Both the position numbers and the translations under genes were made by a program. Positions 28,788 to 47,576 of a stretch of DNA of 64,000 bases are shown one piece after another (the stretch's first letter is position 1; each line of letters opens with the position of its first letter). The stretch lies in IMG/VR virus record IMGVR_UViG_3300032167_000039, one strand, 5' to 3'. Origin of the DNA: a virus. Lineage: Duplodnaviria; Caudoviricetes. The notes below the pieces were generated by a model that was not told where the DNA came from, did not search any database, and was given only the letters and a program-made list of their open reading frames with translations.

Positions 28788-29115
28788 GATTTAGTAGGTT
28801 GACAAATTTTCAGAAATATGATATAATTATATTAATGAAAGTGAGAAATTATTATGCTTGAATTTGCTTATTTCGTAGTGAAATGTGAAATGTGGTATGG
28901 CAGTATTGATTATTAAATATATCGCTGAAACGATTCAAGTTTTCGGTGGCGGATGCAAAGCAAGTGAAAATTCTTTACTTAGACAATATATTCGATCCAG
29001 ACTTTCTGCCAAGGAATCTTGGAACAAAGAAAAACTACAATAAGATGGAAAGATTGAGATAGTTGACAAAAATCACGAAATGTGATATAATATTTATAGA
29101 AAGTTAAAAATAGAT

Positions 29116-29191
29116 TGGAATGTCGGCAAGTGGCTAAGCCAGCAGGTTTTGATCCTGCCATTCGGGGGTTCGAATCCCTCCATTCCAACCA
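29116..29191 (+). tRNA. tRNA-Gln(UUG)
   Basis: Cloverleaf, CCA. Confidence 0.92.
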
Positions 29192-29229
29192 ACCAACCAA
29201 CTATTAATTACTTATTAAAGGTGATATTA

Positions 29230-29637
29230 ATGCAGACAAAAATTTGTACAAAATGTGGAAAGGAATATTCAATTGAAGAGTTTAATTGGAGAGATAAGAA
29301 AAAAGGAAGTCGCAGATCTGAATGTAAATATTGTCATTCTAAATATATGAGAGATAAATATGCACAGAAACAAAAGATAGTACAAGAATTGAAAAAAGAT
29401 TCTTATTGTGCGAAGTGCGGTGATACAAGAGAATATATCTTAGATTATCATCATATTGACCCTTCTATAAAAGAAAATACAGTAGCGAGATTGGTTAGTA
29501 ATTCATATGGTATGGATAAAGTTTTAGCTGAAATTGATAAGTGTATTTTACTTTGTGCAAATTGCCATAGAGAATTCCATTATTTTAATAAGGAGAAGAA
29601 TATTTCTTTAGAAGATTATTTAAAACAACTCACTTGA
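29230..29637 (+). CDS. HNH endonuclease
   Basis: CxxC pairs, LDYHHIDP..CILLCANCHREFH. Confidence 0.85.
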   Translation: MQTKICTKCGKEYSIEEFNWRDKKKGSRRSECKYCHSKYMRDKYAQKQKIVQELKKDSYCAKCGDTREYILDYHHIDPSIKENTVARLVSNSYGMDKVLAEIDKCILLCANCHREFHYFNKEKNISLEDYLKQLT

Positions 29638-29683
29638 CAAAAATCACGAAATGTGATATAATATTTATAGTGAGTTAAGAAAT

Positions 29684-29759
29684 GCGGGCGTAACTCAGTT
29701 GGTAGAGTATCGTCTTGATAAGGCGGAAGTCACAGGTTCAATCCCTGTCGCCCGTACCA
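29684..29759 (+). tRNA. tRNA-Ile(GAU)
   Basis: Cloverleaf, CCA. Confidence 0.92.
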
Positions 29760-29818
29760 TACTCTATTTGTTAGGTCTCTTAGGACACCAAGACCGGTGT
29801 CGGCAGATAGGGTAACCA
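29760..29818 (+). ncRNA. Small ACCA-ended pseudoknotted hairpin RNA
   Basis: 13-bp closing stem + ACCA; gacacc/ggtgtc hairpin whose loop aagacc pairs with ggtct. Confidence 0.5.
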
Positions 29819-29821
29819 AAT

Positions 29822-29898
29822 GCCGCGGTAGCTCAGTTGGTAGTAGCAGAGGACTGAAAATCCTCGTGTCGGCAGTTCGATTCTGCCCCGCGGCACCA
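29822..29898 (+). tRNA. tRNA-Phe(GAA)
   Basis: Cloverleaf, CCA. Confidence 0.93.
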
Positions 29899-29955
29899 AT
29901 AAAATCTTTGGCTCGGCGGTAGCCATTGATACCGCCACAACCTCTTTCTGAAGAT

Positions 29956-30033
29956 GCAGGTGTAGCATAATTGGTGAATGCACTCCCCTTATAAGAGAGC
30001 GATTGCTGAGTTCGAATCTCGCCACCTGTACCA
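29956..30033 (+). tRNA. tRNA-Ile(UAU)
   Basis: Loop CTTATAA, CCA. Confidence 0.85.
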
Positions 30034-30035
30034 TA

Positions 30036-30171
30036 AAGACATTAATAGCAAAGAACGGTCAGTAAAACCGCCGACGAAAGTCTACGCTAGTTCGAATCCA
30101 TGCCTTCCTCACCATTATATGAGGAAGTAGTCAAGTGGTTAAAGACAGCGGTCCGAACTAATAATGTCTTG
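30036..30171 (+). ncRNA. Y-like cassette 1: permuted tRNA-Tyr
   Basis: aagacatta/taatgtctt stem; GTA loop, variable arm, T arm, cttcctcACCA, linker, gaggaag, D arm, gcggtc. Confidence 0.85.
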
Positions 30172-30235
30172 AGTAATTAACCCACTTGACTTTTTATAAA
30201 AATTATGTTATAATATTTATAGAGAGTTGAGAAAT

Positions 30236-30310
30236 GCACCCATAGTTTAGTTGGAAAAACGGTAGATTTGTAATCTTCTGTCCCCTGTTCGAGTCAGGGT
30301 GGGTGCTCCA
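30236..30310 (+). tRNA. tRNA-Thr(UGU)
   Basis: Cloverleaf, CCA. Confidence 0.9.
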
Positions 30311-30375
30311 AAATTTCGCCAAGAAAACTTACCACGAAGAAGTTTAAATGGTTTATAATCGTGGAACCTCTTTCT

Positions 30376-30451
30376 GCGCCCGTAACTCAGTTGGTAGAGT
30401 ATCACACTTTTAATGTGAGAGTCACGAGTTCGAGCCTCGTCGGGCGCACCA
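30376..30451 (+). tRNA. tRNA-Lys(UUU)
   Basis: Cloverleaf, CCA. Confidence 0.93.
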
Positions 30452-30458
30452 TTTAAAT

Positions 30459-30534
30459 GCATCTTTAGCTTAGTTGGTAAAGCAACTGACTCTTAATCAG
30501 AAGACCATAGGTTCAAATCCTGTAAGATGCACCA
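30459..30534 (+). tRNA. tRNA-Lys(CUU)
   Basis: Cloverleaf, CCA. Confidence 0.92.
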
Positions 30535-30617
30535 GTCGAAAGGCGATATGAAAAGGATGGCGAGTGTTGGAGTAAGAAACAACCTCAACCCTGTCAACTT
30601 GGGTTAAAGTTGAATAT

Positions 30618-30712
30618 GGTGATGTGGGTGAGTCAGGCTTAAACCAGCAGATTGCTAATCTGTCGTCCGTCTTTATGGCGGACCGAAGGTTCGAATCCTT
30701 CCATCACCGCCA
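30618..30712 (+). tRNA. tRNA-Ser(GCU)
   Basis: Long variable arm, GCCA. Confidence 0.93.
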
Positions 30713-30713
30713 T

Positions 30714-30776
30714 AAGGCACATACAGCAAAATCTTAAGGAATAGTATTTTAAGCTGTGAATCTAAAGAGTGTCTTG
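30714..30776 (+). ncRNA. Y-like cassette 2: His-like anticodon hairpin
   Basis: aaggcac-atacagcaa...gtgtcttg; loop CTGTGAA. Confidence 0.7.
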
Positions 30777-30829
30777 ACTTTTTAAGAATTTTATGTTATA
30801 ATTATTACATAAAATTAAATATTAAACAT

Positions 30830-30902
30830 GGCGGGCTAGAGAAACGGTATCTCACCACCCTCATAAGGTGGAAATAAGTGGTTCGACTCCACTGCTCCGC
30901 AA
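30830..30902 (+). tRNA. tRNA (CAU) without encoded CCA
   Basis: ccacc-ctcataa-ggtgg, T arm; ends GCAA directly before a ribozyme. Confidence 0.8.
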
Positions 30903-30997
30903 CAGCATTTTCTTTACAAACCTCCACGTGGTAATGCTGGGGCAACGACACAATGGACGTGGGCTAGACACGACTCCACAGTGCGGCGAATGTAAAG
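30903..30997 (+). ncRNA. tRNA-adjacent HDV-like (theta-type position) ribozyme
   Basis: P1 cagcatt/aatgctg, P2 ctttaca/tgtaaag, P3 acc/ggt, L3 tccacgt, J4/2 ggCgaa. Confidence 0.85.
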
Positions 30998-31187
30998 CGT
31001 AATCTTTTCTACGATACAGAAAAGTGACTTCTGAGACTAACTAAGAAGGACTCATGGTTCAATAGGAGCTTAAAAATATAATCTTAGCGGAGACGGTTAC
31101 AATATTTCTGAGTCACGAAACGACAGGAAAGAAAATTAAAGATAGCTATCGGGTCGGTACACCTTGCTGCGGCAGAAGATACTACAT

Positions 31188-31262
31188 ACGGGTTTAGTTT
31201 AATGAAAAATGCCGACCTCCAAAGTCGTAAGATGATGGGTTCAAGTCCCTCAGCCCGTGCCA
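31188..31262 (+). tRNA. tRNA-Trp(CCA)
   Basis: Loop CTCCAAA, GCCA end. Confidence 0.85.
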
Positions 31263-31283
31263 AATACTTTGATAAAGTAATAT

Positions 31284-31362
31284 CGCCTCGTAGTTCAATT
31301 TTGGCTAGAGCATCGGATTGTCTCTCCGAAAGTTGTGGGTTCGAATCCCATCGGGGTGGCCA
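31284..31362 (+). tRNA. tRNA-Asp(GUC)
   Basis: tcgga-ttgtctc-tccga, GCCA end. Confidence 0.85.
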
Positions 31363-31437
31363 TAGGTTGTTTATTTCTCAATATTAGATTGAAGGGGTTC
31401 TCCAACCTTCGTAAAAAGAAGAACACATACATATATT

Positions 31438-31547
31438 AAGACACATACAGCCAAAGATTATTTATAATCTATTGTAGGTTCGATTCCTATCTTTTCAATT
31501 ATTTCGAAAAGTCGCCTAATGGTAGGGCAATTATTTAATGTGTCTTG
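31438..31547 (+). ncRNA. Y-like cassette 3: permuted tRNA body
   Basis: aagacacat/atgtgtcttg; T arm, loop-closed acceptor cttttc/gaaaag, D arm gcctaatggtagggc. Confidence 0.85.
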
Positions 31548-31553
31548 TTTTAT

Positions 31554-31631
31554 GGGGTAGTAGACGAGTGGTATTAAGTCATCACCCTCTCAAGGTGAAG
31601 ATCGTGGGTTCAAATCCCGCCTGCCTCACCA
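31554..31631 (+). tRNA. tRNA-Glu(CUC)
   Basis: Cloverleaf, CCA. Confidence 0.9.
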
Positions 31632-31638
31632 TTTAAAT

Positions 31639-31716
31639 GGCGCCATAGACGAGCGGTATAAGTCGCCACCCCTTCAAGGTGGAGAGCGTTGGGTTCAAAT
31701 CCCACTGGCGTCACCA
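31639..31716 (+). tRNA. tRNA-Glu(UUC), C at position 33
   Basis: ccacc-ccttcaa-ggtgg, CCA. Confidence 0.82.
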
Positions 31717-31717
31717 T

Positions 31718-31790
31718 TAGACACTTTCCAGCAATAAAATTTTAAGCTCTATTTATAAAAAGAACACTGCTTATCGTTCGAAGGTGTCTT
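31718..31790 (+). ncRNA. Y-like cassette 4
   Basis: agacacttt-ccagcaa...aaggtgtctt; inner loop TTTATAA. Confidence 0.7.
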
Positions 31791-31795
31791 ATTAT

Positions 31796-31869
31796 CGAGG
31801 AGTAGTTTAACGGTAAAATACTAGTTTTGGGAACTAGAGTCGGGGTTTCGACTACCCCCTCTTCGACCA
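31796..31869 (+). tRNA. tRNA-Pro(UGG)
   Basis: Cloverleaf, CCA. Confidence 0.88.
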
Positions 31870-31875
31870 ATAGAT

Positions 31876-31952
31876 GTGGTAGGTAGCTTAATTGGTAAAG
31901 CGCATGGTTGTGGCCCATGAAGCTGCGAGTTCGAATCTCGTCCTTCCACCCA
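31876..31952 (+). tRNA. tRNA-His(GUG)
   Basis: G-1:C73, CCA. Confidence 0.9.
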
Positions 31953-31986
31953 TACTATCTATAATTATTATGGAAAGTTAAGAAAT

Positions 31987-32069
31987 GCGGATATGGTGGA
32001 ATTGGTAGACACGCTGTCTTGAGGGGGCAGTGAGCAATCGTTCGGGTTCAAATCCCGATATCCGCACCA
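31987..32069 (+). tRNA. tRNA-Leu(GAG)
   Basis: Cloverleaf, CCA. Confidence 0.92.
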
Positions 32070-32184
32070 TTAACTTAGACGGCCGACTAAGTATAAATAA
32101 AGGGGTGCATGACGTTTTGCTGTTTTCCGAAGAGGGCATTAAAGACAGAAAAAACAGCATACTAAATAGAAAGGAGAGGTAGCT

Positions 32185-32688
32185 GTGAATACTAAAATAT
32201 TTCATCGAGGTAATGGCGAGCCTGTTACTTATAGTGAAATGATGAAGTTAATTGCAGACTATATTAGCAAAGATACAAATCAAGAGTATGAAATCACTGT
32301 TGGTACAGATAGCCAAAACCATAGTAAAACAAAAATGGTAGAAGTTATCGCAATCCACTGTGTTGGACATGGCGGCATCTTCTTCTATCGGACGGATTTT
32401 ATTCGAAAGATTAAATCTCTTAAAGAAAAGATATTTGAAGAGACTTCAAGAAGTCTTGAGAATGCTCAAGGATTACTTGATGAAGTTGGATTTATTCTTC
32501 TTGAAAAGGAAATTGATATTGAAGAGTTAAATCTTCATTTTAAAATCCATTGTGACATTGGTCATTATGGAAAGACTTCAACTCTAATTAAAGAGATTGT
32601 GTCTTGGGTTCATTCTTGTGGTTACGAAGCGGTAATTAAACCTGATAGTTACGCCGCCTCAGGAATTGCAAATAAGATTAGCAAATAA
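32185..32688 (+). CDS. RNase H-like YkuK/DUF458 family protein
   Basis: VGTDSQ, GGIFFY, EETSRSL, IHCDIG, IKPDSYAAS.IA. Confidence 0.85.
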   Translation: MNTKIFHRGNGEPVTYSEMMKLIADYISKDTNQEYEITVGTDSQNHSKTKMVEVIAIHCVGHGGIFFYRTDFIRKIKSLKEKIFEETSRSLENAQGLLDEVGFILLEKEIDIEELNLHFKIHCDIGHYGKTSTLIKEIVSWVHSCGYEAVIKPDSYAASGIANKISK

Positions 32689-32699
32689 AGGAGAATTAT

Positions 32700-32888
32700 A
32701 TGACAGATAAAGAGAAGCTTGATGCATTTTTTGAATATACTCTTGATGCTGAAAGATACTGGCGGCAAAGAGCAAAAGATGGATTTGATAAATACGTATG
32801 TGCTTATCATTTAATGGCTATACAGGATATTCTCCAGTTCGCAGAAGTGGAATTGGGTATACCATATAAGCAATTACCGCTTAATTAA
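32700..32888 (+). CDS. Small protein, paralogue of 33382
   Basis: MTDKEKLD..AIQDILQFAE. Confidence 0.6.
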   Translation: MTDKEKLDAFFEYTLDAERYWRQRAKDGFDKYVCAYHLMAIQDILQFAEVELGIPYKQLPLN

Positions 32889-33032
32889 ATAATGCTGCCC
32901 GTCCCGGGGCGTGCCCCTTCTCCATGCGACCCTCCTGTGTGGGCATAAATTGCGATGCAAATGTGGATATAATACGGGGAACTGATGTACAAGCAAGGGT
33001 TTCTATTTTGTCGTCATTTGGCGGCGAAAGAT

Positions 33033-33111
33033 GCGGGATTGATGGAATTTAGGTATACATACTTGCCTTAGAAGCAAGGTTTTAGGGGTTCGAGTCCCCT
33101 ATCCCGTACCA
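33033..33111 (+). tRNA. tRNA-Leu(UAG), short variable arm
   Basis: cttgc-cttagaa-gcaag, ACCA. Confidence 0.88.
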
Positions 33112-33113
33112 TT

Positions 33114-33238
33114 AAGACCTATACTGCAAACTTTCTTATATGCTTTGGGAGCCGTAGGTTAGAGGTTCGAGCCCTCTTCTCTCCACCAATATGGGGAGAT
33201 AGCTCAATTGGATAGAGCGACGTATTTAATGGGTCTTG
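33114..33238 (+). ncRNA. Y-like cassette 5: permuted tRNA with Pro (UGG) loop
   Basis: aagaccta/tgggtcttg; TTTGGGA, T arm, tctctccACCA, atat, ggggaga, D arm. Confidence 0.85.
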
Positions 33239-33243
33239 TTTAT

Positions 33244-33321
33244 GGCGGCGTAGCATAGTTGGTCAAATGCGACTGCTTCATACGCAGTAGACCATAGGTT
33301 CGAATCCTATCGCCGCCACCA
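33244..33321 (+). tRNA. tRNA-Met(CAU)
   Basis: Cloverleaf, CCA. Confidence 0.92.
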
Positions 33322-33381
33322 GTATGTTGACAAAACTTCCGAAATATGATATAATATTTATAGTGATTAAGAAAAGAGGTT

Positions 33382-33597
33382 ATGAAAATGAGTGATACAG
33401 AAGCACTTGATATTCTTCTTTCTTACATAGAAAGACTTGAGGATAATTATATTCAAATTTTATCAGAATGTAGTAATGAAGCATATCCTTTGTATAGCGG
33501 AGGACTTTCTGCGATTATGGATATATTAAATTTTGCAGAAAAGGATTTGGGATTGTTAGTTAAATGTAACCCACTTGACTTTTCTTCTGAAATATGA
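33382..33597 (+). CDS. Small protein, paralogue of 32700
   Basis: MSDTEALD..AIMDILNFAE. Confidence 0.6.
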   Translation: MKMSDTEALDILLSYIERLEDNYIQILSECSNEAYPLYSGGLSAIMDILNFAEKDLGLLVKCNPLDFSSEI

Positions 33598-33623
33598 TAT
33601 AATATTTATAGTGATTAAGAAAT

Positions 33624-33747
33624 GCGATTGTAGCCCAACAGGCAGAGGCAATGGACACAGGATTAAAAGACTTTGATTGGGGCAGTACCAATATCCTGTA
33701 CCATTAAAATCCATTTAGTGTGGGTTCGAATCCCATCAATCGCACCA
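33624..33747 (+). tRNA. tRNA-Leu(UAA) interrupted by a 47-nt insert between positions 32 and 33
   Basis: Removing 33657-33703 restores atgga-cttaaaa-tccat and a complete cloverleaf. Confidence 0.88.
33657..33703 (+). ncRNA. Nested mini-tRNA (acceptor stem + T arm + ACCA)
   Basis: acaggat/atcctgt 7 bp, attgg-ggcagta-ccaat, ACCA. Confidence 0.8.
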
Positions 33748-33749
33748 AT

Positions 33750-33826
33750 CTTCCATTAGCCCAATTGGTAGAGGCAATATGCTCAAACCGTATTCAGTCT
33801 CAGTTCGAATCTGAGATGGAAGACCA
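33750..33826 (+). tRNA. tRNA-Leu(CAA), short variable arm
   Basis: Loop CTCAAAC, ACCA. Confidence 0.85.
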
Positions 33827-33830
33827 TTCT

Positions 33831-33966
33831 AAGACCTTTACAGCGAAAAACTTTTTCTAAAAGAATTGCTTGTTAAGCCGTGTGTTGGAGGTTCGAATCC
33901 TTCCTCTGGATATGATCCAGAGTAGCTCAAGTGGTAGAGCAACGACCCTCTTAAGAAAAGGTCTTG
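33831..33966 (+). ncRNA. Y-like cassette 6: permuted tRNA-Asn
   Basis: aagaccttt/aaaggtcttg; TTGTTAA, T arm, ctctgga-tatga-tccagag, D arm. Confidence 0.87.
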
Positions 33967-33972
33967 TTAATT

Positions 33973-34048
33973 GGCTCTATAGCCAAGTGGGTTAAGGCGT
34001 CTGACTGCAAATCAGAAGTCCCCTGTTCGAATCAGGGTAGAGCCTCCA
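33973..34048 (+). tRNA. tRNA-Cys(GCA)
   Basis: U73-CCA. Confidence 0.92.
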
Positions 34049-34055
34049 ATTAAAT

Positions 34056-34130
34056 GCCCTCATAATACAAAGGATAGTATAGGGACCTTCTAAGTCTCAT
34101 ATTCCAGTTCAATTCTGGATGAGGGTACCA
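34056..34130 (+). tRNA. tRNA-Arg(UCU)
   Basis: Cloverleaf, CCA. Confidence 0.9.
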
Positions 34131-34133
34131 AAT

Positions 34134-34223
34134 GGCTGGGTGCCCAAGTGGTCATAAGGGCGTAGACCTGAAATCTTCTGTGGTGTAACAGCCCCGTGGG
34201 TTCGAATCCCACCCCAGCCGCCA
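34134..34223 (+). tRNA. tRNA-Ser(UGA), C at position 33
   Basis: Long variable arm, loop CCTGAAA, GCCA. Confidence 0.82.
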
Positions 34224-34371
34224 TAAACAATCGCCCGCCGCCGAAATTATTAGAGGAAGTTATTTACTTTTTCTAAAATTTTTTACAAAGAAAGTTCGGC
34301 GGCGAGTAGGTTGACAAAATTTTCAAAATATGCTATAATAGTTATAGTAAAGTTCGAAAGGAGAAATTAAG

Positions 34372-34503
34372 ATGAAGAGACGAGAAGATATTGTTTTGAG
34401 AATTGAGAAGTTGAAGACCAAGCCTGTGGAAAACGCAAGACTTATCCGTAAGTGGGAACGTATTCTGCGAAATTTCGATAGGGTTGATAATTCAAATACT
34501 TGA
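34372..34503 (+). CDS. Small basic protein (43 aa)
   Basis: Promoter + AAGGAG SD; MKRREDIVLRIEKLK... Confidence 0.55.
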   Translation: MKRREDIVLRIEKLKTKPVENARLIRKWERILRNFDRVDNSNT

Positions 34504-34539
34504 CTTTTCTTACGGAATGTGATTTAATTATATTAATGA

Positions 34540-34599
34540 AAGACGAAAACAGCAATCTTAAACATCTGATTTGGGATCTGATAAGTTAAATTCGTCTTG
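34540..34599 (+). ncRNA. Y-like cassette 7: Pro-like anticodon hairpin
   Basis: aagacgaa-aacagcaa...ttcgtcttg; loop TTTGGGA. Confidence 0.75.
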
Positions 34600-34605
34600 A
34601 TATTT

Positions 34606-34682
34606 GGGATAGTAGCTCTAACGGTTAGAGCAGGAAGCTGTTAACTTCAAGGCTATAGGTTCGAATCCTATCTATCCCGCCA
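34606..34682 (+). tRNA. tRNA-Asn(GUU)
   Basis: Cloverleaf, GCCA. Confidence 0.9.
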
Positions 34683-34686
34683 ATAT

Positions 34687-34760
34687 GCAGCATTGGTGTA
34701 ACGGTAACATCTCTGCCTTCCAAGCAGATGTTGGGGGTTCGAGTCCCCTATGCTGCTCCA
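34687..34760 (+). tRNA. tRNA-Gly(UCC)
   Basis: Cloverleaf, TCCA. Confidence 0.92.
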
Positions 34761-34765
34761 TTTAT

Positions 34766-34900
34766 GGGAGATAGCCTCACGCCCAGACCTAACCAGTCAA
34801 TAGGAAAACAACCTTGTAGGAACGGGCGGTAACTGGCGCCGTATAGTCCAGACGATTGTTGCTGTGATTGTTGGCAAGCGAAAGTAGGAGTGGTTCTCCA
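34766..34900 (+). ncRNA. Unknown structured RNA ending in CCA
   Basis: ggaga/tctcc closing stem; cgccc/gggcg and ccagt/actgg crossing helices. Confidence 0.5.
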
Positions 34901-34913
34901 AACAATCAAATAT

Positions 34914-35000
34914 GGGTAGATAAACCGTAAGTGGTAGCGGGTGTGACTGTAAATCACATGCCTTTGTGCTCGGGTGGTTCGACTCCATCTCTGCCCACCA
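34914..35000 (+). tRNA. tRNA-Tyr(GUA)
   Basis: Variable arm, ACCA. Confidence 0.9.
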
Positions 35001-35039
35001 TAGAGTTTATTGGTTTTCTCCATAGCAAAAACCAAATTA

Positions 35040-35138
35040 AAGACAGTACCAGCCACTTTATTATAATTTTTAAAATGATATAGTGAAAATATTTTTAATC
35101 AGGTTTGTCCTCCTGACATAGTTTATAATACTGTCTTG
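35040..35138 (+). ncRNA. Y-like cassette 8: Asp-like hairpin
   Basis: aagacagta-ccagcca...tactgtcttg; tcagg/cctga with GTC in the loop. Confidence 0.7.
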
Positions 35139-35338
35139 TAAAAATTAAATGAACTTAGCACGCCTCTTATTAATGCGGACCACGCTAAGTCTTATAGGTC
35201 GGCAGTGGGTAAAACCTTGGAAGTGCCTTACCCTTAAAAGTTAAATATTCCTAATTAGTTAGTCACGGACTTGTGCTGCTGTAGTTCGTGCCGCCCAAAC
35301 AGCAGTGGGTGCAATTGGTTGAAAGTCCAAGGAAATTA

Positions 35339-35410
35339 TTCGCTGTAGTTTAATAAAAACCTACTTCTGTCAAAAGGGAGTATAATGCGAGTGTGGCCTC
35401 GTCGGCTAAT
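35339..35410 (+). pseudogene. Degenerate tRNA-Asp-like sequence
   Basis: D arm, CTGTCAA loop, non-canonical T loop, no CCA. Confidence 0.45.
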
Positions 35411-35478: not shown

Positions 35479-35564
35479 AAGACGGTTTCAGCAAACTTTA
35501 AATGGTTAAATAAAAATTCTTTTGTAAAATTTTTAGAGAAGGTTCAATTCCTTCAATCGTCTTG
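35479..35564 (+). ncRNA. Y-like cassette 9: Tyr-like loop + T arm
   Basis: aagacggtt-tcagcaa...aatcgtcttg; TTGTAAA; gaagg-ttcaatt-ccttc. Confidence 0.75.
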
Positions 35565-35585
35565 TTAATAATTTAATAATTAATA

Positions 35586-35668
35586 AGACAAAGAGTAAAT
35601 AAGAGTAATTAACTTATGATGAGGTTCCTCATAGCCTTCTCTTTGTCTTTTTATTTTATATGAGGAAA
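35586..35668 (+). promoter_or_regulatory. Structured leader upstream of an endonuclease gene
   Basis: aagacaaagag/ctctttgtctt stem; loop ttcctcata complementary to downstream tatgaggaa. Confidence 0.55.
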
Positions 35669-36582: not shown

Positions 36583-38019
36583 ATGAGTTTTGTAGATGGA
36601 TTTAATGCAATGACAACCATGAAGACTACGGAAAATGGCGCGGTAGCTTATTCTAAACTTGATAGTGATGTTTTATCTCTTTTTGCCGTAGTTGGCGGTA
36701 TGAGAAAGCGTGATGAAGCTGATATTGTTCAGATGTATCATGCGGCTCGTAAGGAAGACAAGGAGCTTGCTGACAAGATTGTCCTCTATGCTCGTGATGT
36801 GCGTGGAGTAGGTCTTGGTGAGCGTAGAATCGGTAAGATTCTTCTTAAGGCTCTTGCTTATATTGATCGTGCAAAGGTGGAGAGAAATTTCCAGACCTTT
36901 GTAATGAATGGTCGTTTCGATGACCTTTATGCCCTTGAGGGAACCCCTGCAGAGACTGCTATGTGGCAGTTTATGAAGGATACTCTTCTTAAGGATGCGG
37001 CAGCAATGAAGGTTGGTAAGCCTATTAGTCTCGCCGCAAAGTGGATGAAGTCTATTAACACTTCTTCTGCTGAATCTAAGAGACTTGCAAGAAAGTTCTG
37101 TACTGTTGCAGGTATCTCTGAGAGAACTTATCGTAAGACCCTTGCGGCCCTTCGTAAGTATTCTAATGTAGTTGAGGTTAAGATGTCTACTAATGAGTGG
37201 GAGGCTATCAACTTCGAGGCAGTACCTTCTGTCGCAATGAAGAGATATTCTACTGCTTTTGGCAAGCATTGTCCTAATGCTTTTACTCAGTATAAGCACG
37301 AGCTGACTACTGGTGAAGCAAAGGTAAATGCTCAGACTCTTTATCCTTATGACATCACCTACCAGTTCATGTACGGTGGCAATGCCGATAAGGCTATCCT
37401 TGAAGCTCAATGGAAGGCACAAAAGAATTGGTTCAAGGAAGATGCTAAGATTGTAGTTGCAGCAGATGTTTCTGCTTCTATGACCGGAATGCCTATGGCG
37501 GCGTCAGTGGGTCTTGCAATGTATGCAGCAACTTTTAATCAAGGGTCCTATCACGGATATTATCTTACTTTTACAGATAAGCCTTATTTTTACAAGATTG
37601 ATGAAAATGAGAGTCTTGAAACTAATATTAGAAAAGTTATGAGAAACGTTGGGTATAATACTGAAATGGATAAAATGTTTGAAGCTATTTATGAAATGGC
37701 AGTAAGAGAAAATGATGCACCTGACGCGCTTGTTATTGTTTCTGATATGGAGATTGATAGATTTATGAGAGCCAATGCTTGTGATGATATCATTACAAAA
37801 TGGGTGAATAAGTTCAGAAATGCTGGGCTTGAATGTCCAAAGATGATTCTTTGGAATGCAGAGAGTAGACAGAACACATATCTTGCCCGTTCTAATAATC
37901 CTTATGTTGCTTTTGTAAGCGGTTGTTCTGCTAGTACTTTTGGTAATCTTACTGAATTAATTTCAATGAGTGCTTACGAAGCAATGGTTAAGATTCTTAG
38001 CCAGTACGAGTTTGTATAA
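36583..38019 (+). CDS. TROVE/vWA Ro60-like protein (DUF2828 type)
   Basis: TENGA, YARDVRG.GLGER, LAAKW, VPSVAM, LYPYD, MIDAS DVSASM and SDME, WN. Confidence 0.85.
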   Translation: MSFVDGFNAMTTMKTTENGAVAYSKLDSDVLSLFAVVGGMRKRDEADIVQMYHAARKEDKELADKIVLYARDVRGVGLGERRIGKILLKALAYIDRAKVERNFQTFVMNGRFDDLYALEGTPAETAMWQFMKDTLLKDAAAMKVGKPISLAAKWMKSINTSSAESKRLARKFCTVAGISERTYRKTLAALRKYSNVVEVKMSTNEWEAINFEAVPSVAMKRYSTAFGKHCPNAFTQYKHELTTGEAKVNAQTLYPYDITYQFMYGGNADKAILEAQWKAQKNWFKEDAKIVVAADVSASMTGMPMAASVGLAMYAATFNQGSYHGYYLTFTDKPYFYKIDENESLETNIRKVMRNVGYNTEMDKMFEAIYEMAVRENDAPDALVIVSDMEIDRFMRANACDDIITKWVNKFRNAGLECPKMILWNAESRQNTYLARSNNPYVAFVSGCSASTFGNLTELISMSAYEAMVKILSQYEFV

Positions 38020-38076: not shown

Positions 38077-38317
38077 AAGACCTTTAATCAGCAATCTTAT
38101 AGATGATAACAGAGAAAATACATTATTTCATGACTATTTGTCAGTGGGAGCGCGTAGCCTAAGCGAGATATTAGGACTTTATCTTCGGATAATGGAGTAC
38201 CAATACTTATTATTGGCGTTCTATAGAACGAGAACTATAGCGTTTTCTTGGAGCGAGATACTAAGACGGCGGATCGCTTGTAAAGATACCTAAAGTCTCA
38301 TAGAGCAGAAGGTCTTG
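38077..38317 (+). ncRNA. Y-like cassette 10 (long, multi-hairpin payload)
   Basis: aagacctt-taatcagcaa...aaggtcttg directly after the TROVE gene. Confidence 0.7.
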
Positions 38318-39470: not shown

Positions 39471-40124
39471 ATGGAATTAAAATGTTTATCAATTATTACA
39501 AATTTTGGGTGTCATTATAAGTGCCCTTATTGTATTGTAAAAAAGAATGGTATCAACATTCCAAAAACAACAGTGAAATCTCTTGATACTCTATTAGAAA
39601 CTTATAAATCAGGAGGATATGATTACATTTCAATTTCAGGTGGCGGCGATCCGATGTTTGAATTTGATAAACACAAAGATTTTTATGATAGATTGTTTTC
39701 GATTTGCAGAGAAAATGATATAAAAATCGAGCTTCACACTTCTTACATCAAAGAAATTGAAAATAAACTTCCTCTTGAATTATTTAATAGAATTGTTTTT
39801 CACTGCAATACAATTGATGATGTTTTTGAAGCGGAACAGACGGATTGTAGAGACATTCTTAAAAGAGTGGTTTTTGTTATAGAAGACAGAATGACTATTG
39901 ATTATTTACTGACTATTCGTAATGTTGTTAACAATAGTAAAACAATTGATCAATTGTCTTTTAGACAAAGAGTAGATGAAAATTACAATATTTCATATCA
40001 TTTACATGACGCCTTAAAAATGGGACACTTATATAAACAATGGTATTATATCGAACAAGCGGATTACAATACCTACTTCGTAGATGGGCAAACTAAGAAA
40101 AAATATGAGGATTTTAAGAAGTAA
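39471..40124 (+). CDS. Radical SAM protein
   Basis: CHYKCPYC, ISGGGDP. Confidence 0.85.
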   Translation: MELKCLSIITNFGCHYKCPYCIVKKNGINIPKTTVKSLDTLLETYKSGGYDYISISGGGDPMFEFDKHKDFYDRLFSICRENDIKIELHTSYIKEIENKLPLELFNRIVFHCNTIDDVFEAEQTDCRDILKRVVFVIEDRMTIDYLLTIRNVVNNSKTIDQLSFRQRVDENYNISYHLHDALKMGHLYKQWYYIEQADYNTYFVDGQTKKKYEDFKK

Positions 40125-40135
40125 TTGGAGGCAAT

Positions 40136-40810
40136 ATGAATAGAACATTTATTACAGGAGATCTTCATCAATCAATTGACATCTGTAAACTTGCAGTTCG
40201 TCGTTTTCCGATTCAAAAAGAATTGGATAAGTCTGATGTTATGATTGTTTGTGGCGATGCGGGATTGGTGTGGGATGGTTCTAAAGAAGATAAATATTGG
40301 CAGGAATGGCTTGATGAAAGAAATTTTACTACTTTTTGTTGCCTTGGAAATCATGAGGGTTATAATCTTATTAACGATTATCCCATTGTAGAAATTTTTG
40401 GCGGCAAGGCTCGTGAAATTCAGCCATCTGTTTTTTATGCTATTGGTGGAGAAATTTATACAATTAATGGAAAGAAAATGCTTTTTATTAATGGTGCGGA
40501 TAGCCATGATAAGGAGTGGAGAACTGAGGGTAAGTCCTGGTGGCCGCAGGAACAGATTACTTCAATAGATATTTCCCATGCACTTTACAATCTTGAACAA
40601 CATGATTTTTATATTGATTACATTATTTCTCACACTGGTGGCAGTGAGGTTTGTAGACAATTAGGTTTTGCGCCCACCGTAAGTGATAAAATGTTGGACA
40701 AGGCTCTTGAGACGGCACGGTATAGCGAACATTATTGTGGACATTATCACGTTGATAAATGGGTCGGAGACAGTCGTATTATTTATGATGATATTTTAGA
40801 ACTACGCTAA
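40136..40810 (+). CDS. Calcineurin-like metallophosphoesterase
   Basis: GDLH, GD, GNHE, SH, GHYH. Confidence 0.9.
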   Translation: MNRTFITGDLHQSIDICKLAVRRFPIQKELDKSDVMIVCGDAGLVWDGSKEDKYWQEWLDERNFTTFCCLGNHEGYNLINDYPIVEIFGGKAREIQPSVFYAIGGEIYTINGKKMLFINGADSHDKEWRTEGKSWWPQEQITSIDISHALYNLEQHDFYIDYIISHTGGSEVCRQLGFAPTVSDKMLDKALETARYSEHYCGHYHVDKWVGDSRIIYDDILELR

Positions 40811-40875
40811 TACTTGACTTTTTCTCCAATCTATGATATAATAATTATAGAAAAGTGAGAAAGAGGTAGGAAGAA

Positions 40876-41981
40876 ATGAGTAATGTAAGTAAAGTATTGG
40901 CAGAGCAAACGCTCGCAAAAAAGTTCGACTTCATTATGTTTATTGTAAACGAATTCGGAGAAGAGAAGTGCCAAACAAAAAAGGAAACAAAGAAAAAGTT
41001 TCTTGCAAGTTTTGGAGATAGTGATAGTTTTCGTGTAAAACTTGTTGATCGTTATCCCGAAATAATGGAGAATGATATCTTTTATATCGCAAAGAATGGC
41101 AAGGCAGTATGGATTAGAGAGGAGCTTGAGTAATGGCGAGAGTAAAGATTACAGACGAAGTGATTGAGCAGATTAATGAGCTTTACTGTGAGCTTAAGGT
41201 TAAATCTCATGTTGCCAAAGCTCTTGGAATTTCTGCTTCAACCGTAAGTAAGTATATCGTCCCAAATTATATCTGTAAAGCAGATAGAGTTGTTGAAGCG
41301 TTTAGCGGCCGCCCCAGCATAATTTCTATGGATAAGATTGCGTCATTTGACGGGGCGGCGCACTTGGGATATTTCCTTACTCATATTATGGACGATGAAA
41401 AGGAAGACATGGAGAAACTCCAGAAAGGAATTTTTATATGAGAGCATTTATGGTTAGTGAAGCTTGTAATGAAGGCGAATATATGGTGAGACTTACAGAT
41501 GAAATGTTCTCTCTGATGGGATGTCAGTCTGGAAGTTTTAACATTGTAGCGGCGAGAATTTTGGGATTTAGTTATCCTGACTATCTTCGATATGTGAGAG
41601 ATAATCACAATGCAATACTTAAGGGGAAGCAAGGCTATTCTTATGCGATTTATAAGGATAGAAAAGATTGTGTTGCAGTTGTAACATTGCTCAATGATAC
41701 TTGGAGAAAAGTTGAGGCGGCGATTATTAGTAAGATGAATGAGGTGACGAAAGGAGAGAATGGTTAATACATTAACAAGAATTGAATCGTGCATTGCTGA
41801 GCGCTCTTTCATTATTCCTGTTGGTAATAGCAAAGGGATTTCTCCCGAAGATATTGTACAAACAGTTTACATTGATCTCGCGACAGGGCGGCCCTATCAG
41901 GATGGTGCATTTGTTGCAAAAGGCGAAACATTTTGGAAGTGGACTCGTTCTGATGCTTGTAATGACAACATACCAGAGTAA
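40876..41981 (+). other. Operon of four small CDS (40876-41133, 41133-41441 HTH-like, 41438-41767, 41760-41981)
   Basis: Overlapping start/stop codons after a sigmaA promoter. Confidence 0.6.
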
Positions 41982-41999
41982 GAGAAAGGAGAAAAGGAA

Positions 42000-43346: not shown

Positions 43347-43439
43347 AATTAAAAGTCAACTCTCAAAAGGGAGTTGACTTTTTCTATATTTTATGGTATA
43401 ATTATTATAGTAAATGAGAAAAAAAGGAGTGATGTATAA

Positions 43440-44363
43440 GTGGCTGCGATTATCGAAATGTTAATCGGGCTTCCTTAGCCTGGTTGCGGTAAATCAACAT
43501 ATGCAAAAAATCTTATGAAGCAGAATCCCAATATTGTAGTTGTATCTTCCGATGCAATTCGCAAGGAGCTTTATGGTTCTGAAGAGGATCAGTCTCATAA
43601 TCAGGAGGTCTTTAACGAAGTTTTCAAAAGAACTTGCGCTGCGATTAAGAATAATAAGCATTGTATTATTGACGCAACTAATCTTTCTCGTAAGCGTAGA
43701 ATTGCTTTTCTTAAGCAGTTCAATAACTGCGAGAAGAGAGCTACTGTATTTGCAATCCCTTTTGAGGTTTGTTGTGAGCGTAATAATTCTCGTGAAAGAA
43801 CTGTTCCTCAGTATGCAATGGATAGAATGTATCGCTCTTTTGAGCCGCCGCACTGGGCAGAGGGATTTGATTTTATTGAAGTAATTCATTATGAGAACCC
43901 GGCCCTTTCTATTGAAGACGTGCTTGCAGAGAATATCAAGTGTGAACACGATAATCCCCATCATTCTCTTAGCTGTGGAAAGCATTGTCTTGCCGCAGAG
44001 GAAGCCGCAGGAATTATTTGTGAGAATGAATATTGGGATTCAGTAACGACTCATCTCATTGCCAAGGCAGCACGCTATCATGATATGTCTAAGTATAAGT
44101 GTAAGGTATTTCATAATATGAAGGGCGAACCTACAGATATTGCTCATTACTATAATCATGAGAATGTTTCTGCATATGACTATATGGCATATGAGGCGGG
44201 GATGGAGCCGGAGTATGATACAATTGTTATTGCAAACTTGATTGCAAATCATATGGTATTCTATACTGGTGAAGCGGCAATCCAGAAGAGAAGAGATATT
44301 TATGGAGTAGGATTTTGGTCAATGCTCGAGGTTTTGAATAGAGCCGACAGGGCAGCGCACTAA
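43440..44363 (+). CDS. Polynucleotide kinase (AAA_33) + HD domain, with in-frame TAG in the P-loop
   Basis: SD+GTG 43440, MLIGLP*PGCGKST, SSDAIR, IIDATN, HD, HE. Confidence 0.85.
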
Positions 44364-44521
44364 GGAGGTTTAAATGAAAACATATAGAGTTACACTGACA
44401 TACCTTATGGAACTTGAAGTTCCTGATGAATATGAAAAGAATGATATTTATAATCAGGCAGTAACTGAAATTGCCGCAGACTTGTGGCTTCCTAATGATT
44501 GTAAGATTGAGGTAGTAGAAA

Positions 44522-45621: not shown

Positions 45622-45642
45622 TTATTAAAAGGAGAGATTTGT

Positions 45643-46719: not shown

Positions 46720-46801
46720 GGCATAGGATAACTATGCCTCTTGACTTTTTCTATAAAATATGTTATAATATATATAGAAAGTTAAGAAAAGGAGAACATT
46801 T

Positions 46802-47509: not shown

Positions 47510-47576
47510 ATTCTAATGAGTTGACATTTTTATTAAAATGTGATATAATTATATATGTAAGGTTGAGAAAGGAGTA

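What the first reader, a model, noticed from the sequence alone, without database searches (positions are those of the whole stretch)
30036..33966. Circularly permuted tRNA bodies opened at the anticodon loop
Seen: cassettes 1, 3, 5 and 6 read anticodon loop - T arm - 3' acceptor strand - linker - 5' acceptor strand - D arm. Cassette 1 is recognisably Tyr (variable arm, gcggt/accgc) and cassette 6 is Asn (TCC/GGA acceptor). Cassettes 1 and 5 keep ACCA before a 4-6 nt linker; 3 and 6 close the acceptor with a loop and lack CCA. Established: permuted tRNA genes in some algae and archaea mature through circular intermediates. Inference: 1 and 5 could mature via phage ligases plus RNase P/Z. Alternatively the set is an evolutionary series from captured tRNA to pure mimic, which is favoured because intact Tyr, Pro and Asn tRNAs are also encoded.
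Basis: partly seen in the sequence, partly recalled or inferred. Interest (0 to 1): 0.85.

Follow-up and report, generated by a model that had tools for sequence, protein, structure and literature searches.

The report
Phage Y-RNA-like tRNA mimics
The "inside-out tRNAs" scattered through this phage's tRNA gene cluster are real, but they are most likely Y-RNA-type tRNA mimics that partner a Ro60-shaped phage protein encoded just downstream, not tRNA genes awaiting re-joining.

Summary
Cassettes 1, 3, 5 and 6 read T arm, 3' acceptor strand, linker, 5' acceptor strand, D arm. Each is closed by a helix between its own two ends. This is the architecture of YrlA, the tRNA-like Y RNA of bacterial and phage Ro60. 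Rfam's YrlA model matches cassettes 6, 5 and 3 significantly but below its curated cut-off.

The 478-aa ORF at 36583-38019 (Pfam DUF2828+DUF7788) folds like Ro60. A shared "handle" (7-10 bp clamp helix plus ACAGCAA) travels with this gene in both directions. It gives 164 hits on the gene's strand against 3 on the other across 84 related loci. All 10 phage genomes found by the RNA pattern alone encode the protein.

Helices covary: 14 of 16 pairs in 25 sequences from very different phages.

Maturation into working tRNAs through circles is not supported. RNase P nicking of the CCA-bearing cassettes 1 and 5 is plausible from the Mycobacterium smegmatis YrlA precedent.

The scan has flagged this handle-RNA family before on other DNA, in at least 36 genomes. 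I found no paper describing the handle or the arrays.

The parts
30036..30171 (+). Cassette 1, a Tyr-like tRNA mimic.
- Clamp helix: 30036-30044 with 30162-30170.
- Handle motif variant AUAGCAA: 30045-30051.
- Anticodon-arm-like hairpin: 30055-30071, with loop CAGUAAA.
- Variable-arm hairpin: 30073-30082.
- Degenerate T region: 30086-30103.
- 3' acceptor strand: 30104-30110.
- ACCA: 30111-30114.
- Linker: 30115-30120.
- 5' acceptor strand: 30121-30127.
- D arm: 30130-30146.
- Second copy of the anticodon-stem 5' strand: 30148-30152.
   Evidence: Orthologues: L006:3683-3818, and L009:9287-9432, which folds as a full cloverleaf inside the clamp.
30714..30776 (+). Cassette 2. It has the handle only, plus a hairpin with a Lys(UUU)-like 7-nt loop. 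There is no tRNA body.
31438..31547 (+). Cassette 3, a tRNA mimic.
- Clamp helix: 31438-31446 with 31538-31546.
- Handle motif: 31447-31454.
- V-type hairpin: 31455-31470.
- T arm: 31474-31490.
- 6-bp acceptor hairpin: 31491-31511, with a 9-nt loop and no CCA.
- D arm: 31514-31528.
- No anticodon stem.
   Evidence: Rfam YrlA 27.3 bits, E 0.012, full length.
31718..31790 (+). Cassette 4. It has a clamp helix and a CCAGCAA motif. There is no tRNA body.
33114..33238 (+). Cassette 5, a tRNA mimic.
- Clamp helix: 33114-33122 with 33229-33237.
- Handle motif variant ACUGCAA: 33123-33129.
- Hairpin with the 7-nt loop of tRNA-Pro(UGG): 33142-33152.
- T arm: 33161-33177.
- 3' acceptor strand: 33178-33184.
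- ACCA: 33185-33188.
- Linker AUAU: 33189-33192.
- 5' acceptor strand: 33193-33199.
- D arm: 33202-33218.
   Evidence: Rfam YrlA 32.8 bits, E 3e-4.
33831..33966 (+). Cassette 6, an Asn-like tRNA mimic.
- Clamp helix: 33831-33839 with 33957-33965.
- Handle motif ACAGCGAA: 33840-33847.
- Anticodon-arm-like hairpin: 33865-33881.
- T arm: 33887-33903.
- 7-bp acceptor hairpin: 33904-33922, with a 5-nt loop.
- D arm: 33925-33940.
- Alternative anticodon-stem strand: 33942-33946.
   Evidence: Rfam YrlA 45.1 bits, E 8e-8, model positions 1-114. ARAGORN reads Asn(GUU) after un-permutation. Also.
34540..34599 (+). Cassette 7. It has the handle plus a hairpin with a Pro(UGG)-type 7-nt loop.
35040..35138 (+). 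Cassette 8. It has a clamp helix and a CCAGCC motif, with an AT-rich payload and a hairpin.
35479..35564 (+). Cassette 9. It has the handle plus a T arm only.
36583..38019 (+). Gene for a 478-aa Ro60-like protein (HEAT-repeat ring plus vWA domain). It is the proposed protein partner of the cassettes.
   Evidence: - Pfam: DUF2828 + DUF7788.
- PHROG 850, 'RNA-binding protein'.
- AF2 model with pLDDT 89.
- The 12 best Foldseek PDB matches (E 6e-9 to 9e-5) are all Ro60/TROVE structures; the best 11 have E 6e-9 to 1.5e-6, mostly TM 0.5-0.6 (D. radiodurans Rsr 0.34), over the full length.
- 31-33% identical to mycobacteriophage proteins annotated 'Ro-like RNA binding protein'.

Best explanation
The cassettes are small non-coding RNAs of the Y-RNA kind, closest to YrlA. 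They are transcribed together with the phage tRNAs.

**Release (inferred).** The enzymes that trim the neighbouring tRNAs set them free. RNase P cutting at the next tRNA's 5' end, 5-6 nt after the cassette, would define the 3' end.

**Structure (shown).** Each RNA closes on itself through a 7-10 bp clamp helix. Next to the clamp on the 5' strand lies a single-stranded ACAGCAA-type motif. I call the two together the handle.

**Partner (inferred).** The handle is the binding site for the phage's Ro60-like ring protein, encoded at 36583-38019.

**Payload (shown).** In cassettes 1, 3, 5 and 6 the variable payload is a tRNA elbow: T arm stacked on an acceptor-like hairpin, plus a D arm. It is wired in the YrlA order because the ends leave the body where the anticodon arm would be.

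**Function (inferred).** The payload lets the particle engage host or phage proteins that recognise tRNA. Candidates are PNPase, as in known Ro-Y RNA-PNPase machines, tRNA-targeting defence nucleases, or the phage's own RNA-repair enzymes.

**Nicking of cassettes 1 and 5 (inferred).** These keep a 7-bp acceptor stem, NCCA and a tRNA-spacer-like linker. RNase P probably nicks them at the 5' acceptor strand. That would give a two-piece RNA with a CCA end, as reported for M. smegmatis YrlA.

**Origin (inferred).** The junction of two tandem tRNA genes (3' half, CCA, spacer, 5' half) was captured inside a handle.
For: **Architecture**
- The Rfam YrlA model aligns cassette 6 over its whole length (45.1 bits, E 8e-8), and also cassettes 5 and 3.
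- A mycobacteriophage RNA directly behind an annotated Ro-like gene scores no better (38.3 bits).

**Structure**
- RNAalifold on an unfitted alignment of 25 bodies gives T arm, acceptor hairpin and D arm. The bodies come from gut phages and from Mycobacterium, Escherichia, Enterococcus and Bacillus phages. 14 of 16 pairs show double compensatory changes.
- Acceptor pairs picked by flanking anchors alone are 79-96% paired, against 42-56% with shuffled partners.
- Clamp positions 6 and 7 are 98% paired, against 50% and 44%, and use all four Watson-Crick pair types.

**Partner**
- The ORF folds like Ro60.
- The 5' handle motif occurs 164 times on the gene's strand against 3 on the other in 84 loci with 37-96% identical proteins. 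141 against 0 have the 3' clamp strand downstream.
- In the reverse direction, loci were found by the RNA pattern alone. Of 55 matches with a proper clamp, 17 have the gene inside the short locus, against 2 of 68 chance-like matches. All 10 whole records tested encode it.
- The handle also lies beside the gene in cultured phages.

**Processing context**
- 58 of 123 distinct cassettes abut a tRNA within 12 nt, with a preferred 5-6 nt gap to the next tRNA.

**Precedents**
- YrlA beside Ro60 in 254 bacteria and 22 phages, and RNase P cleavage plus a CCA end in M. smegmatis (PMC4201824).
- Thermus phage Ro60 binds two phage Y-like RNAs and host PNPase (PMC12135203).
- Bas63 gp130, Ro60-like and placed next to tRNA genes, counters the Ppl defence (PMC11482910).

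**Origin**
- The linker of cassette 5 (AUAU) equals the natural spacer between tRNA-Asn and tRNA-Gly at 34683-34686.
- Cassettes 1 and 6 and L009:9287 carry two alternative 5' strands for one anticodon stem.
Against: - No cassette reaches Rfam's YrlA gathering score of 69 bits.
- The published Ro-binding motif GNCGAAN0-1G is not present as such. ACAGCAA stands in its place.
- By sequence, the protein is not detectably Ro60. Pfam gives DUF2828/DUF7788 and not TROVE. A profile of 21 relatives finds no Ro60 chain in the PDB. Only the predicted fold links them.
- Binding of handle to protein is inferred from co-occurrence only.
- Cassettes 1 and 3 lie 6.4 and 5.0 kb from the gene, beyond the 4 kb used in the 2014 survey.
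- All four tRNA-like cassettes of this window deviate by one base from the ACAGCAA consensus.
Confidence: 0.8

Rival explanations
1. True circularly permuted tRNA genes. The transcript is cut and its ends are joined (phage Rnl1/Rnl2 plus PNK). RNase P and 3' trimming then open the acceptor, giving a working Tyr, Pro or Asn tRNA.
For: - The 3' half precedes the 5' half.
- Cassettes 1 and 5 encode NCCA and a spacer-like linker.
- The phage encodes PNK-like, Rnl1-like and Rnl2-like enzymes.
- Un-permuted cassette 6 is called tRNA-Asn by ARAGORN.
Against: - The flanks form a plain helix with no bulge-helix-bulge.
- The same clamp and motif close cassettes with no tRNA body.
- The RNA ends lie outside the handle, so ligation would give a circle containing the handle, not a 7-nt anticodon loop.
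- Cassette 3 has no anticodon stem.
- Cassette 1 has A instead of the near-universal U33 and a degenerate T stem.
- After un-permutation the other 12 recognised bodies give aberrant anticodon arms, most with 'introns' of 3-27 nt, and their anticodon calls look arbitrary.
- Anticodon identity is not kept among orthologues of cassette 6 (GUU here; UUU in L001 and L006).
Confidence: 0.03
2. Decoys or sponges that work without the Ro60-like protein. The tRNA parts soak up host tRNA-targeting nucleases or modification enzymes, and the clamp only stabilises the RNA against exonucleases.
For: - Payloads include exact anticodon-loop look-alikes (Lys UUU, Pro UGG, Tyr GUA, Asn GUU types), and these recur in several lineages.
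- Phages are known to carry tRNAs that counter tRNA-cleaving defences (general knowledge).
Against: - This does not explain the invariant single-stranded ACAGCAA next to a clamp whose sequence varies freely.
- It does not explain the two-way genomic linkage with the Ro60-like gene.
- The loose hairpin test is only moderately above shuffles (86 against a mean of 53.5, maximum 68), and it includes T arms.
Confidence: 0.1
3. Cis-acting punctuation of the tRNA operon. On this reading the cassettes are structured spacers that guide RNase processing of the polycistronic tRNA transcript, and they have no life of their own.
For: 47% of distinct cassettes abut tRNAs within 12 nt, with a fixed 5-6 nt gap downstream.
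Against: - In Mycobacterium phage Krypton555 three handle RNAs follow the Ro-like gene, with no tRNA within 2.6 kb.
- Many cassettes are more than 300 nt from any tRNA.
- tRNA-like T and D loops are conserved far beyond what a spacer hairpin needs.
Confidence: 0.04
4. Decaying remnants of tandem tRNA duplications, with no present function.
For: - Cassette 1 has a degenerate T stem.
- The window's cassette 3 has lost CCA.
- The linkers look like tRNA spacers.
Against: - Compensatory changes keep every helix across phages whose partner proteins are only 37-50% identical.
- The strand bias is strict, 164 against 3.
Confidence: 0.03

Closest known systems
YrlA, the tRNA-like Y RNA of bacterial and phage Ro60/Rsr (Rfam RF02553; Chen et al. 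2014, PMC4201824)
   Same: - A terminal helix made by the two ends.
- The order: V-type hairpin, T arm, acceptor-like hairpin, D arm.
- Conserved T-loop and D-loop letters.
- Encoded on the same strand near a Ro60-type gene.
- Some members carry a 7-bp acceptor stem that RNase P can cut, giving a CCA end.
   Different: - Scores fall below Rfam's cut-off.
- The strand motif next to the clamp is ACAGCAA, not GNCGAAN0-1G.
- The partner is the DUF2828/DUF7788 branch, which is Ro60-like only by fold.
- There are nine or more copies per genome, interleaved with tRNA genes.
- Payloads are interchangeable: a full elbow, a T arm alone, or an anticodon-arm look-alike.
- CCA and a spacer are often encoded rather than added.
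Thermus phage phiLo Ro60 with Yrl1 and Yrl2 (PMC12135203; PDB 9KOP, 9L5Y)
   Same: - A phage-encoded Ro60-fold protein with phage-encoded Y-like RNAs beside the gene.
- That protein is among the top fold matches of the window's protein.
   Different: - phiLo has two RNAs, which were picked by a CGAA motif in an internal bulge.
- No tRNA-array context or tRNA-like payload is described in the text I read.
Permuted tRNA genes of Cyanidioschyzon merolae and some other algae and archaea (recalled from memory; not read here)
   Same: The 3' half of the cloverleaf is encoded upstream of the 5' half, joined by a short linker at the acceptor ends.
   Different: - Those genes carry a bulge-helix-bulge that is cut by the splicing endonuclease.
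- They circularise and yield a complete tRNA.
- Here there is a plain clamp helix plus a conserved single-stranded motif, and no complete anticodon arm after un-permutation.
Class I RNAs of dictyostelid amoebae (Rfam RF01414; Kjellin et al. 2021, PMC7919456)
   Same: The design is the same: a short helix joining the 5' and 3' ends that covaries freely, a conserved unpaired motif next to its 5' strand, and a variable remainder. In that motif positions 3, 6, 9, 10 and 11 are T, C, C, A, A, which is compatible with ..ACAGCAA.
   Different: - They are eukaryotic and 42-65 nt long.
- They have no tRNA-like payload.
- The reported partner is an RRM protein.
- Rfam's model gave no match in 28800-35400 at E up to 10.
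- This lead came from earlier scan notes and is only partly checked.

Membership tests
YrlA / Y RNA-like (RF02553) | The 5' and 3' ends pair to form a terminal helix. | tested here: met
   All six cassettes in 30036-33966 fold with an 8-10 bp terminal helix. Helix positions 6-7 covary in 123 distinct cassettes.
YrlA / Y RNA-like (RF02553) | A tRNA-like module in the order T arm, acceptor-like hairpin, D arm, with conserved T- and D-loop letters. | tested here: met
   See the Rfam alignments. The RNAalifold consensus of 25 sequences has compensatory changes in 14 of 16 pairs. Cassette 1 has a degenerate T stem.
YrlA / Y RNA-like (RF02553) | Reaches the curated Rfam gathering score of 69 bits. 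| tested here: not met
   Scores are 45.1, 32.8 and 27.3 bits for cassettes 6, 5 and 3. Cassette 1 is not reported. A mycobacteriophage RNA beside an annotated Ro-like gene also reaches only 38.3 bits.
YrlA / Y RNA-like (RF02553) | A GNCGAAN0-1G motif near the 5' end, the proposed Ro60 contact. | tested here: not met
   The conserved motif is ACAGCAA. Only cassette 6 (ACAGCGAA) contains CGAA.
YrlA / Y RNA-like (RF02553) | Encoded near a Ro60 orthologue and on the same strand. | tested here: met
   The Ro60-fold gene lies at 36583-38019 on the same strand, 2.6 to 6.4 kb downstream of the four cassettes. The linkage holds in both directions in other phages.
YrlA / Y RNA-like (RF02553) | Bound by Ro60 in vivo; carries tRNA-type modifications. 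| not testable with these tools
   This needs immunoprecipitation and modification mapping.
Permuted tRNA genes | The 3' half is encoded upstream of the 5' half. | tested here: met
Permuted tRNA genes | Un-permutation restores a complete tRNA with a normal anticodon arm. | tested here: not met
   ARAGORN recognises 13 of 16 un-permuted bodies, but most carry 'introns' of 3-34 nt or odd loops. Cassette 1 is not recognised, and cassette 3 has no anticodon stem.
Permuted tRNA genes | A bulge-helix-bulge at the processing site and a circular intermediate. | tested here: not met
   The flanks form a continuous 8-10 bp helix without the two 3-nt bulges.
Dictyostelid Class I RNA (RF01414) | A match to the Rfam covariance model. 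| tested here: not met
   No RF01414 match at E up to 10 in 28800-35400. Only the design and the conserved motif positions agree.
Ro60 / TROVE protein (the partner) | A HEAT-repeat ring plus a C-terminal vWA domain. | tested here: met
   The AF2 model has pLDDT 89. The 12 best Foldseek PDB matches (E 6e-9 to 9e-5) are Ro60/TROVE structures over the full length; plain vWA domains follow.
Ro60 / TROVE protein (the partner) | Sequence match to Pfam TROVE or to solved Ro60 chains. | tested here: not met
   Pfam gives DUF2828 + DUF7788 only. Neither phmmer nor a 21-sequence profile finds a Ro60 chain.

The most novel reading that the evidence does not exclude
The handle (clamp helix plus ACAGCAA) is a universal address tag. 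It loads many different tRNA-derived 'baits' onto one Ro60-like ring: whole elbows, CCA-ended split bodies and bare anticodon arms of Lys, Pro, Tyr and Asn type. The phage would then carry a programmable panel of tRNA look-alikes. These could capture or misdirect host tRNA-cleaving defence nucleases, or bring broken tRNAs to the phage's ligases. The CCA-bearing ones would be nicked by RNase P and perhaps even charged.
Probability: 0.25. Interest if true: 0.85.

Novelty: new variant of a known kind. Interest (0 to 1): 0.6.

Why it matters
Ro60 and Y RNAs are an old puzzle, from human autoimmunity to bacterial stress. What the tRNA-like part of bacterial Y RNAs is for remains open.

Here one phage carries at least nine RNAs with a common protein-binding handle and swappable tRNA-derived payloads, next to RNA-repair genes. 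The family is present in culturable Escherichia, Bacillus, Enterococcus and Mycobacterium phages. That makes the question directly testable by asking which host proteins each payload recruits, and whether this counters tRNA-targeting defences.

It also corrects annotation. These stretches are neither tRNA pseudogenes nor permuted tRNA genes.

Tried and rejected
- **Own tRNAs as source.** Local alignment of each cassette half against the 25 intact tRNAs of the window gave no clear parent. Recent capture of the phage's own Tyr, Pro or Asn tRNA is rejected.
- **Close cultured relative.** Megablast of the array against INPHARED found only a 57-nt tRNA-Phe match.
- **Whole genome.** None is held for this window.
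- **Sequence link to Ro60.** phmmer and a profile search against the PDB found nothing. Only the fold search did.
- **Expression, ends and circles.** Junction reads and RNase P nicks remain untested.
- **Chen 2014 supplementary alignments and phage table.** They are not held as text.
- **Anticodon-arm look-alikes.** My loose hairpin definition finds 86 of 126 cassettes, against a mean of 53.5 (maximum 68) in mononucleotide shuffles, and it includes T arms. I therefore treat 'payloads display anticodon loops' as suggestive only. The recurrence of exact Lys, Pro, Tyr and Asn loops partly reflects orthology.
- **GGUCCGA in cassette 1.** This exact animal Ro60-contact heptamer lies at 30150-30156, on the 3' side. 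It is not kept in the orthologues L006 and L009, so I do not use it.
- **Two-piece tmRNA.** Rejected: there is no tag reading frame and no tmRNA match.
- **Literature.** Searches on YrlA, TROVE, DUF2828, Ro60 with phage, and anticodon-nuclease decoys found no description of the ACAGCAA handle or of such arrays.

Full report
**What is there.** The window is a phage genome segment. A 6-kb array of 25 tRNA genes lies on the + strand at 29116-35000. Between the tRNAs lie repeated cassettes.

Each cassette begins with AAGAC plus 2-5 variable bases. A single-stranded motif close to ACAGCAA follows. Each ends with the complement of the first 7-10 bases followed by G. I count nine with the motif:
- 30036-30171
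- 30714-30776
- 31438-31547
- 31718-31790
- 33114-33238
- 33831-33966
- 34540-34599
- 35040-35138
- 35479-35564

Two further clamp-like hairpins lack the motif (35585-35649 and 38173-38316). All six cassettes inside the flagged range fold with the terminal helix.

**The observation.** Cassettes 1, 3, 5 and 6 contain, in this order, a T arm, a 3' acceptor strand, a loop or linker, a 5' acceptor strand and a D arm. Exact coordinates are in 'parts'.
- Cassettes 1 and 5 have ACCA directly after a 7-nt 3' strand, then a 6-nt or 4-nt linker.
- Cassettes 3 and 6 close the stem with 9-nt and 5-nt loops and have no CCA.

When I placed each 5' half in front of its 3' half, ARAGORN called 13 of 16 such bodies a tRNA over the full length. 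The bodies came from this window and from other phages. Cassette 6 became tRNA-Asn(GUU) with a 34-nt insert.

Two details need correction.
- **Where the body opens.** Cassettes 1 and 6 are not cut open in the anticodon loop. Upstream of the T arm they keep a whole anticodon-arm-like hairpin. Its 7-nt loop holds GUA in cassette 1 and GUU in cassette 6. After the D arm they carry a second strand that can pair with the same 3' strand. In the orthologue L009:9287-9432 the minimum-energy fold is a full cloverleaf sitting inside the clamp. Cassette 3 has no anticodon stem at all.
- **Cassette 1's T stem.** It has only 3 of 5 pairs.

None of the bodies is a close copy of the phage's own tRNAs.

**What it is.** Rfam's YrlA model (RF02553, 'Y RNA-like') matches three cassettes:
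- cassette 6 over all 114 model positions (45.1 bits, E 8e-8);
- cassette 5 (32.8 bits, E 3e-4);
- cassette 3 (27.3 bits, E 0.012).

All are below the curated 69 bits. The model's consensus is terminal stem, T arm, hairpin, D arm, terminal stem. That is exactly the 'permuted tRNA' order.

Chen et al. 2014 (PMC4201824) described this class beside Ro60 genes in 254 bacteria and 22 phages. They showed tRNA-type modifications. For M. smegmatis YrlA, which has a 7-bp acceptor stem, they showed RNase P cleavage and a CCA end.

**The partner protein.** The 478-aa ORF at 36583-38019 is DUF2828+DUF7788 in Pfam and PHROG 850 'RNA-binding protein'. Sequence searches do not connect it to solved Ro60 chains.

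Its AlphaFold model has pLDDT 89 and was built from 21 relatives. The 12 best Foldseek matches (E 6e-9 to 9e-5) are all Ro60/TROVE structures over the full length. They include frog and human Ro60, Deinococcus Rsr and Thermus phage phiLo Ro60. The best 11 have E between 6e-9 and 1.5e-6. TM is 0.5-0.6 for most and 0.34 for Deinococcus Rsr.

It is 31-33% identical to mycobacteriophage proteins annotated 'Ro-like RNA binding protein'. It has relatives in 707 cultured phage records. Downstream lie several RNA-repair-type genes:
- a metallophosphoesterase;
- a PNK-like kinase;
- an Rnl1-like ligase;
- an Rnl2-like ligase.

**Linkage of handle and gene.** I collected 84 loci with relatives of the protein at 37-96% identity.
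- The 5' handle pattern occurs 164 times on the gene's strand and 3 times on the other.
- 141 against 0 have the matching 3' end 35-210 nt downstream.
- Without my asking for it, clamp positions 6 and 7 are paired in 98%. With shuffled partners the figures are 50% and 44% (maxima 59% and 54%). All four Watson-Crick types occur.

In the reverse direction I scanned IMG/VR for the RNA pattern alone.
- Matches with a proper clamp carry a T loop in 42 of 55. The gene lies inside the short locus in 17 of 55.
- For chance-like matches the figures are 9 of 68 and 2 of 68.
- Ten further whole records reached only through the RNA all encode the protein, with E between 1e-62 and 1e-110.

The handle also lies beside the gene in cultured phages:
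- Bacillus phage vB_BcoS-136 (about nine copies);
- Escherichia phage Alf5 (four copies);
- Enterococcus phage EFDG1 (two copies);
- Mycobacterium phage Krypton555 (three copies directly after the gene).

In these phages the clamp sequence differs but ACAGCAA stays the same. The tRNA-like member in Krypton555 scores 38.3 bits with Rfam YrlA. The window's cassettes are therefore as good 'phage YrlA' as that one.

**Structure support for the tRNA-like body.** I took acceptor strands purely by position relative to T-loop and D-arm anchors. They are 79-96% paired, against 42-56% with shuffled partners.

RNAalifold on a plain MAFFT alignment of 25 bodies from all these phage groups predicts three elements. 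These are a 5-bp T stem with a 7-nt loop, an abutting 7-bp hairpin and a 4-bp D stem. 14 of 16 pairs show changes on both sides that keep the pair.

**How it most likely works.**

Shown:
- the fold;
- the covariation;
- the linkage to a Ro60-fold gene;
- the tight packing against tRNAs.

On the last point, 58 of 123 distinct cassettes lie within 12 nt of a tRNA. The gap to the next tRNA is typically 5-6 nt.

Inferred:
- The cassettes are co-transcribed with the tRNAs and freed by tRNA end-processing.
- The handle binds the Ro60-like ring.
- The tRNA elbow recruits tRNA-recognising proteins. Known Ro-Y RNA particles tether PNPase in this way (PMC4201824, PMC12135203).
- A Ro60-like protein next to the tRNA genes of phage Bas63 counters the Ppl defence (PMC11482910).
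- Cassettes 1 and 5 look to RNase P exactly like a normal tRNA junction, with a 7-bp stem, NCCA and a spacer. They would probably be nicked into two pieces held together by the acceptor and clamp helices, as in M. smegmatis.

**Origin.** In the 31 parsed bodies, roughly a third have NCCA directly after the 3' strand, followed by a 3-8 nt AU-rich linker (4 of 24 in the stricter anchor set). The linker of cassette 5 is the same four bases as the natural spacer between tRNA-Asn and tRNA-Gly at 34683-34686.

Together with the duplicated anticodon-stem strand, this fits capture of the junction of two tandem tRNA genes. The orthologues of cassette 3 in L001 and L002 still have CCA where the window has lost it.

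**Why not real permuted tRNAs.**
- There is no bulge-helix-bulge.
- The same clamp closes cassettes that carry only a hairpin or a T arm.
- Joining the ends would include the handle.
- Un-permuted bodies lack normal anticodon arms.
- The 'anticodon' differs among orthologues of cassette 6.

**Novelty.** The architecture and the Ro60 link are known. The following I did not find in the papers searched:
- the ACAGCAA handle;
- the DUF2828 branch as its partner;
- arrays of nine or more copies interleaved with tRNA genes;
- swappable tRNA-derived payloads;
- encoded CCA-plus-spacer junctions.

Earlier notes of this scan describe the same family on other DNA in at least 36 genomes. They also gave the lead to dictyostelid Class I RNAs. 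That paper's text is compatible with the motif, but Rfam's model does not match here.

Noticed in passing
window 33624-33744: A tRNA gene (Rfam tRNA, 44.9 bits) carries a 53-nt insertion in the anticodon loop. The insert ends in ACCA.
   Followed up: no
window 30831-30997: A CCA-less, 71-nt tRNA-Met-like gene (30831-30901) is followed at once by a sub-threshold match to the HDV-like ribozyme of F. prausnitzii (RF02682; 34.2 bits against cut-off 44; E 0.0015) at 30903-30997. This may be a self-cleaving 3' processing element.
   Followed up: no
window 32185-32688; L009:7480-7983: A 167-aa RNase H-like protein (PF04308, E 2e-47) is encoded in the middle of the tRNA/cassette array. A gene of the same family sits inside the array of a phage whose Ro60-like protein is only 51% identical.
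   Followed up: partly
window 39471-49124: An RNA-repair-type gene set lies downstream of the Ro60-like gene:
- radical SAM (39471-40124);
- metallophosphoesterase (40136-40810);
- PNK-like AAA_33 (43515-44363);
- Rnl1-like ligase (45643-46719);
- Rnl2-like ligase (48144-49124).

Related phages add Thg1-like and Band-7 genes.
   Followed up: partly
window 14320-16506: A UvrD-type helicase gene is interrupted by an intein with a LAGLIDADG homing endonuclease domain.
   Followed up: no
window 30150-30156 and 31772-31783: The 3' side of cassette 1 holds GGUCCGA, the exact heptamer contacted by animal Ro60. Cassette 4 has a close relative of the human Y1 5' strand. Neither is kept in orthologues, so both may be chance or remnants of an anticodon arm.
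   Followed up: partly
window 30769-30805: The 3' end of cassette 2 (…GTCTTGAC) overlaps the -35 box of the next TTGAC…TATAAT promoter. Several such promoters are spread through the array, for example at 29636-29665 and 30187-30216.
   Followed up: no
cassettes 2 and 7 of the window; L053:7266, L012:6757, L017:5828, L009:3569/4017: Short cassettes carry hairpins whose 7-nt loops equal or nearly equal the anticodon loops of tRNA-Lys(UUU) and tRNA-Pro(UGG). Some have A in place of U33.
   Followed up: partly
L088:6110-6460 (Enterococcus phage EFDG1): A full tmRNA gene (140.6 bits) sits inside this phage's tRNA array, 3.5 kb upstream of its Ro60-like gene.
   Followed up: no
window 38173-38316: A 144-nt stretch just after the Ro60-like gene is closed by an 8-bp AGGAC…GTCTT helix. 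It has no ACAGCAA motif. It may be a divergent member of the family.
   Followed up: no
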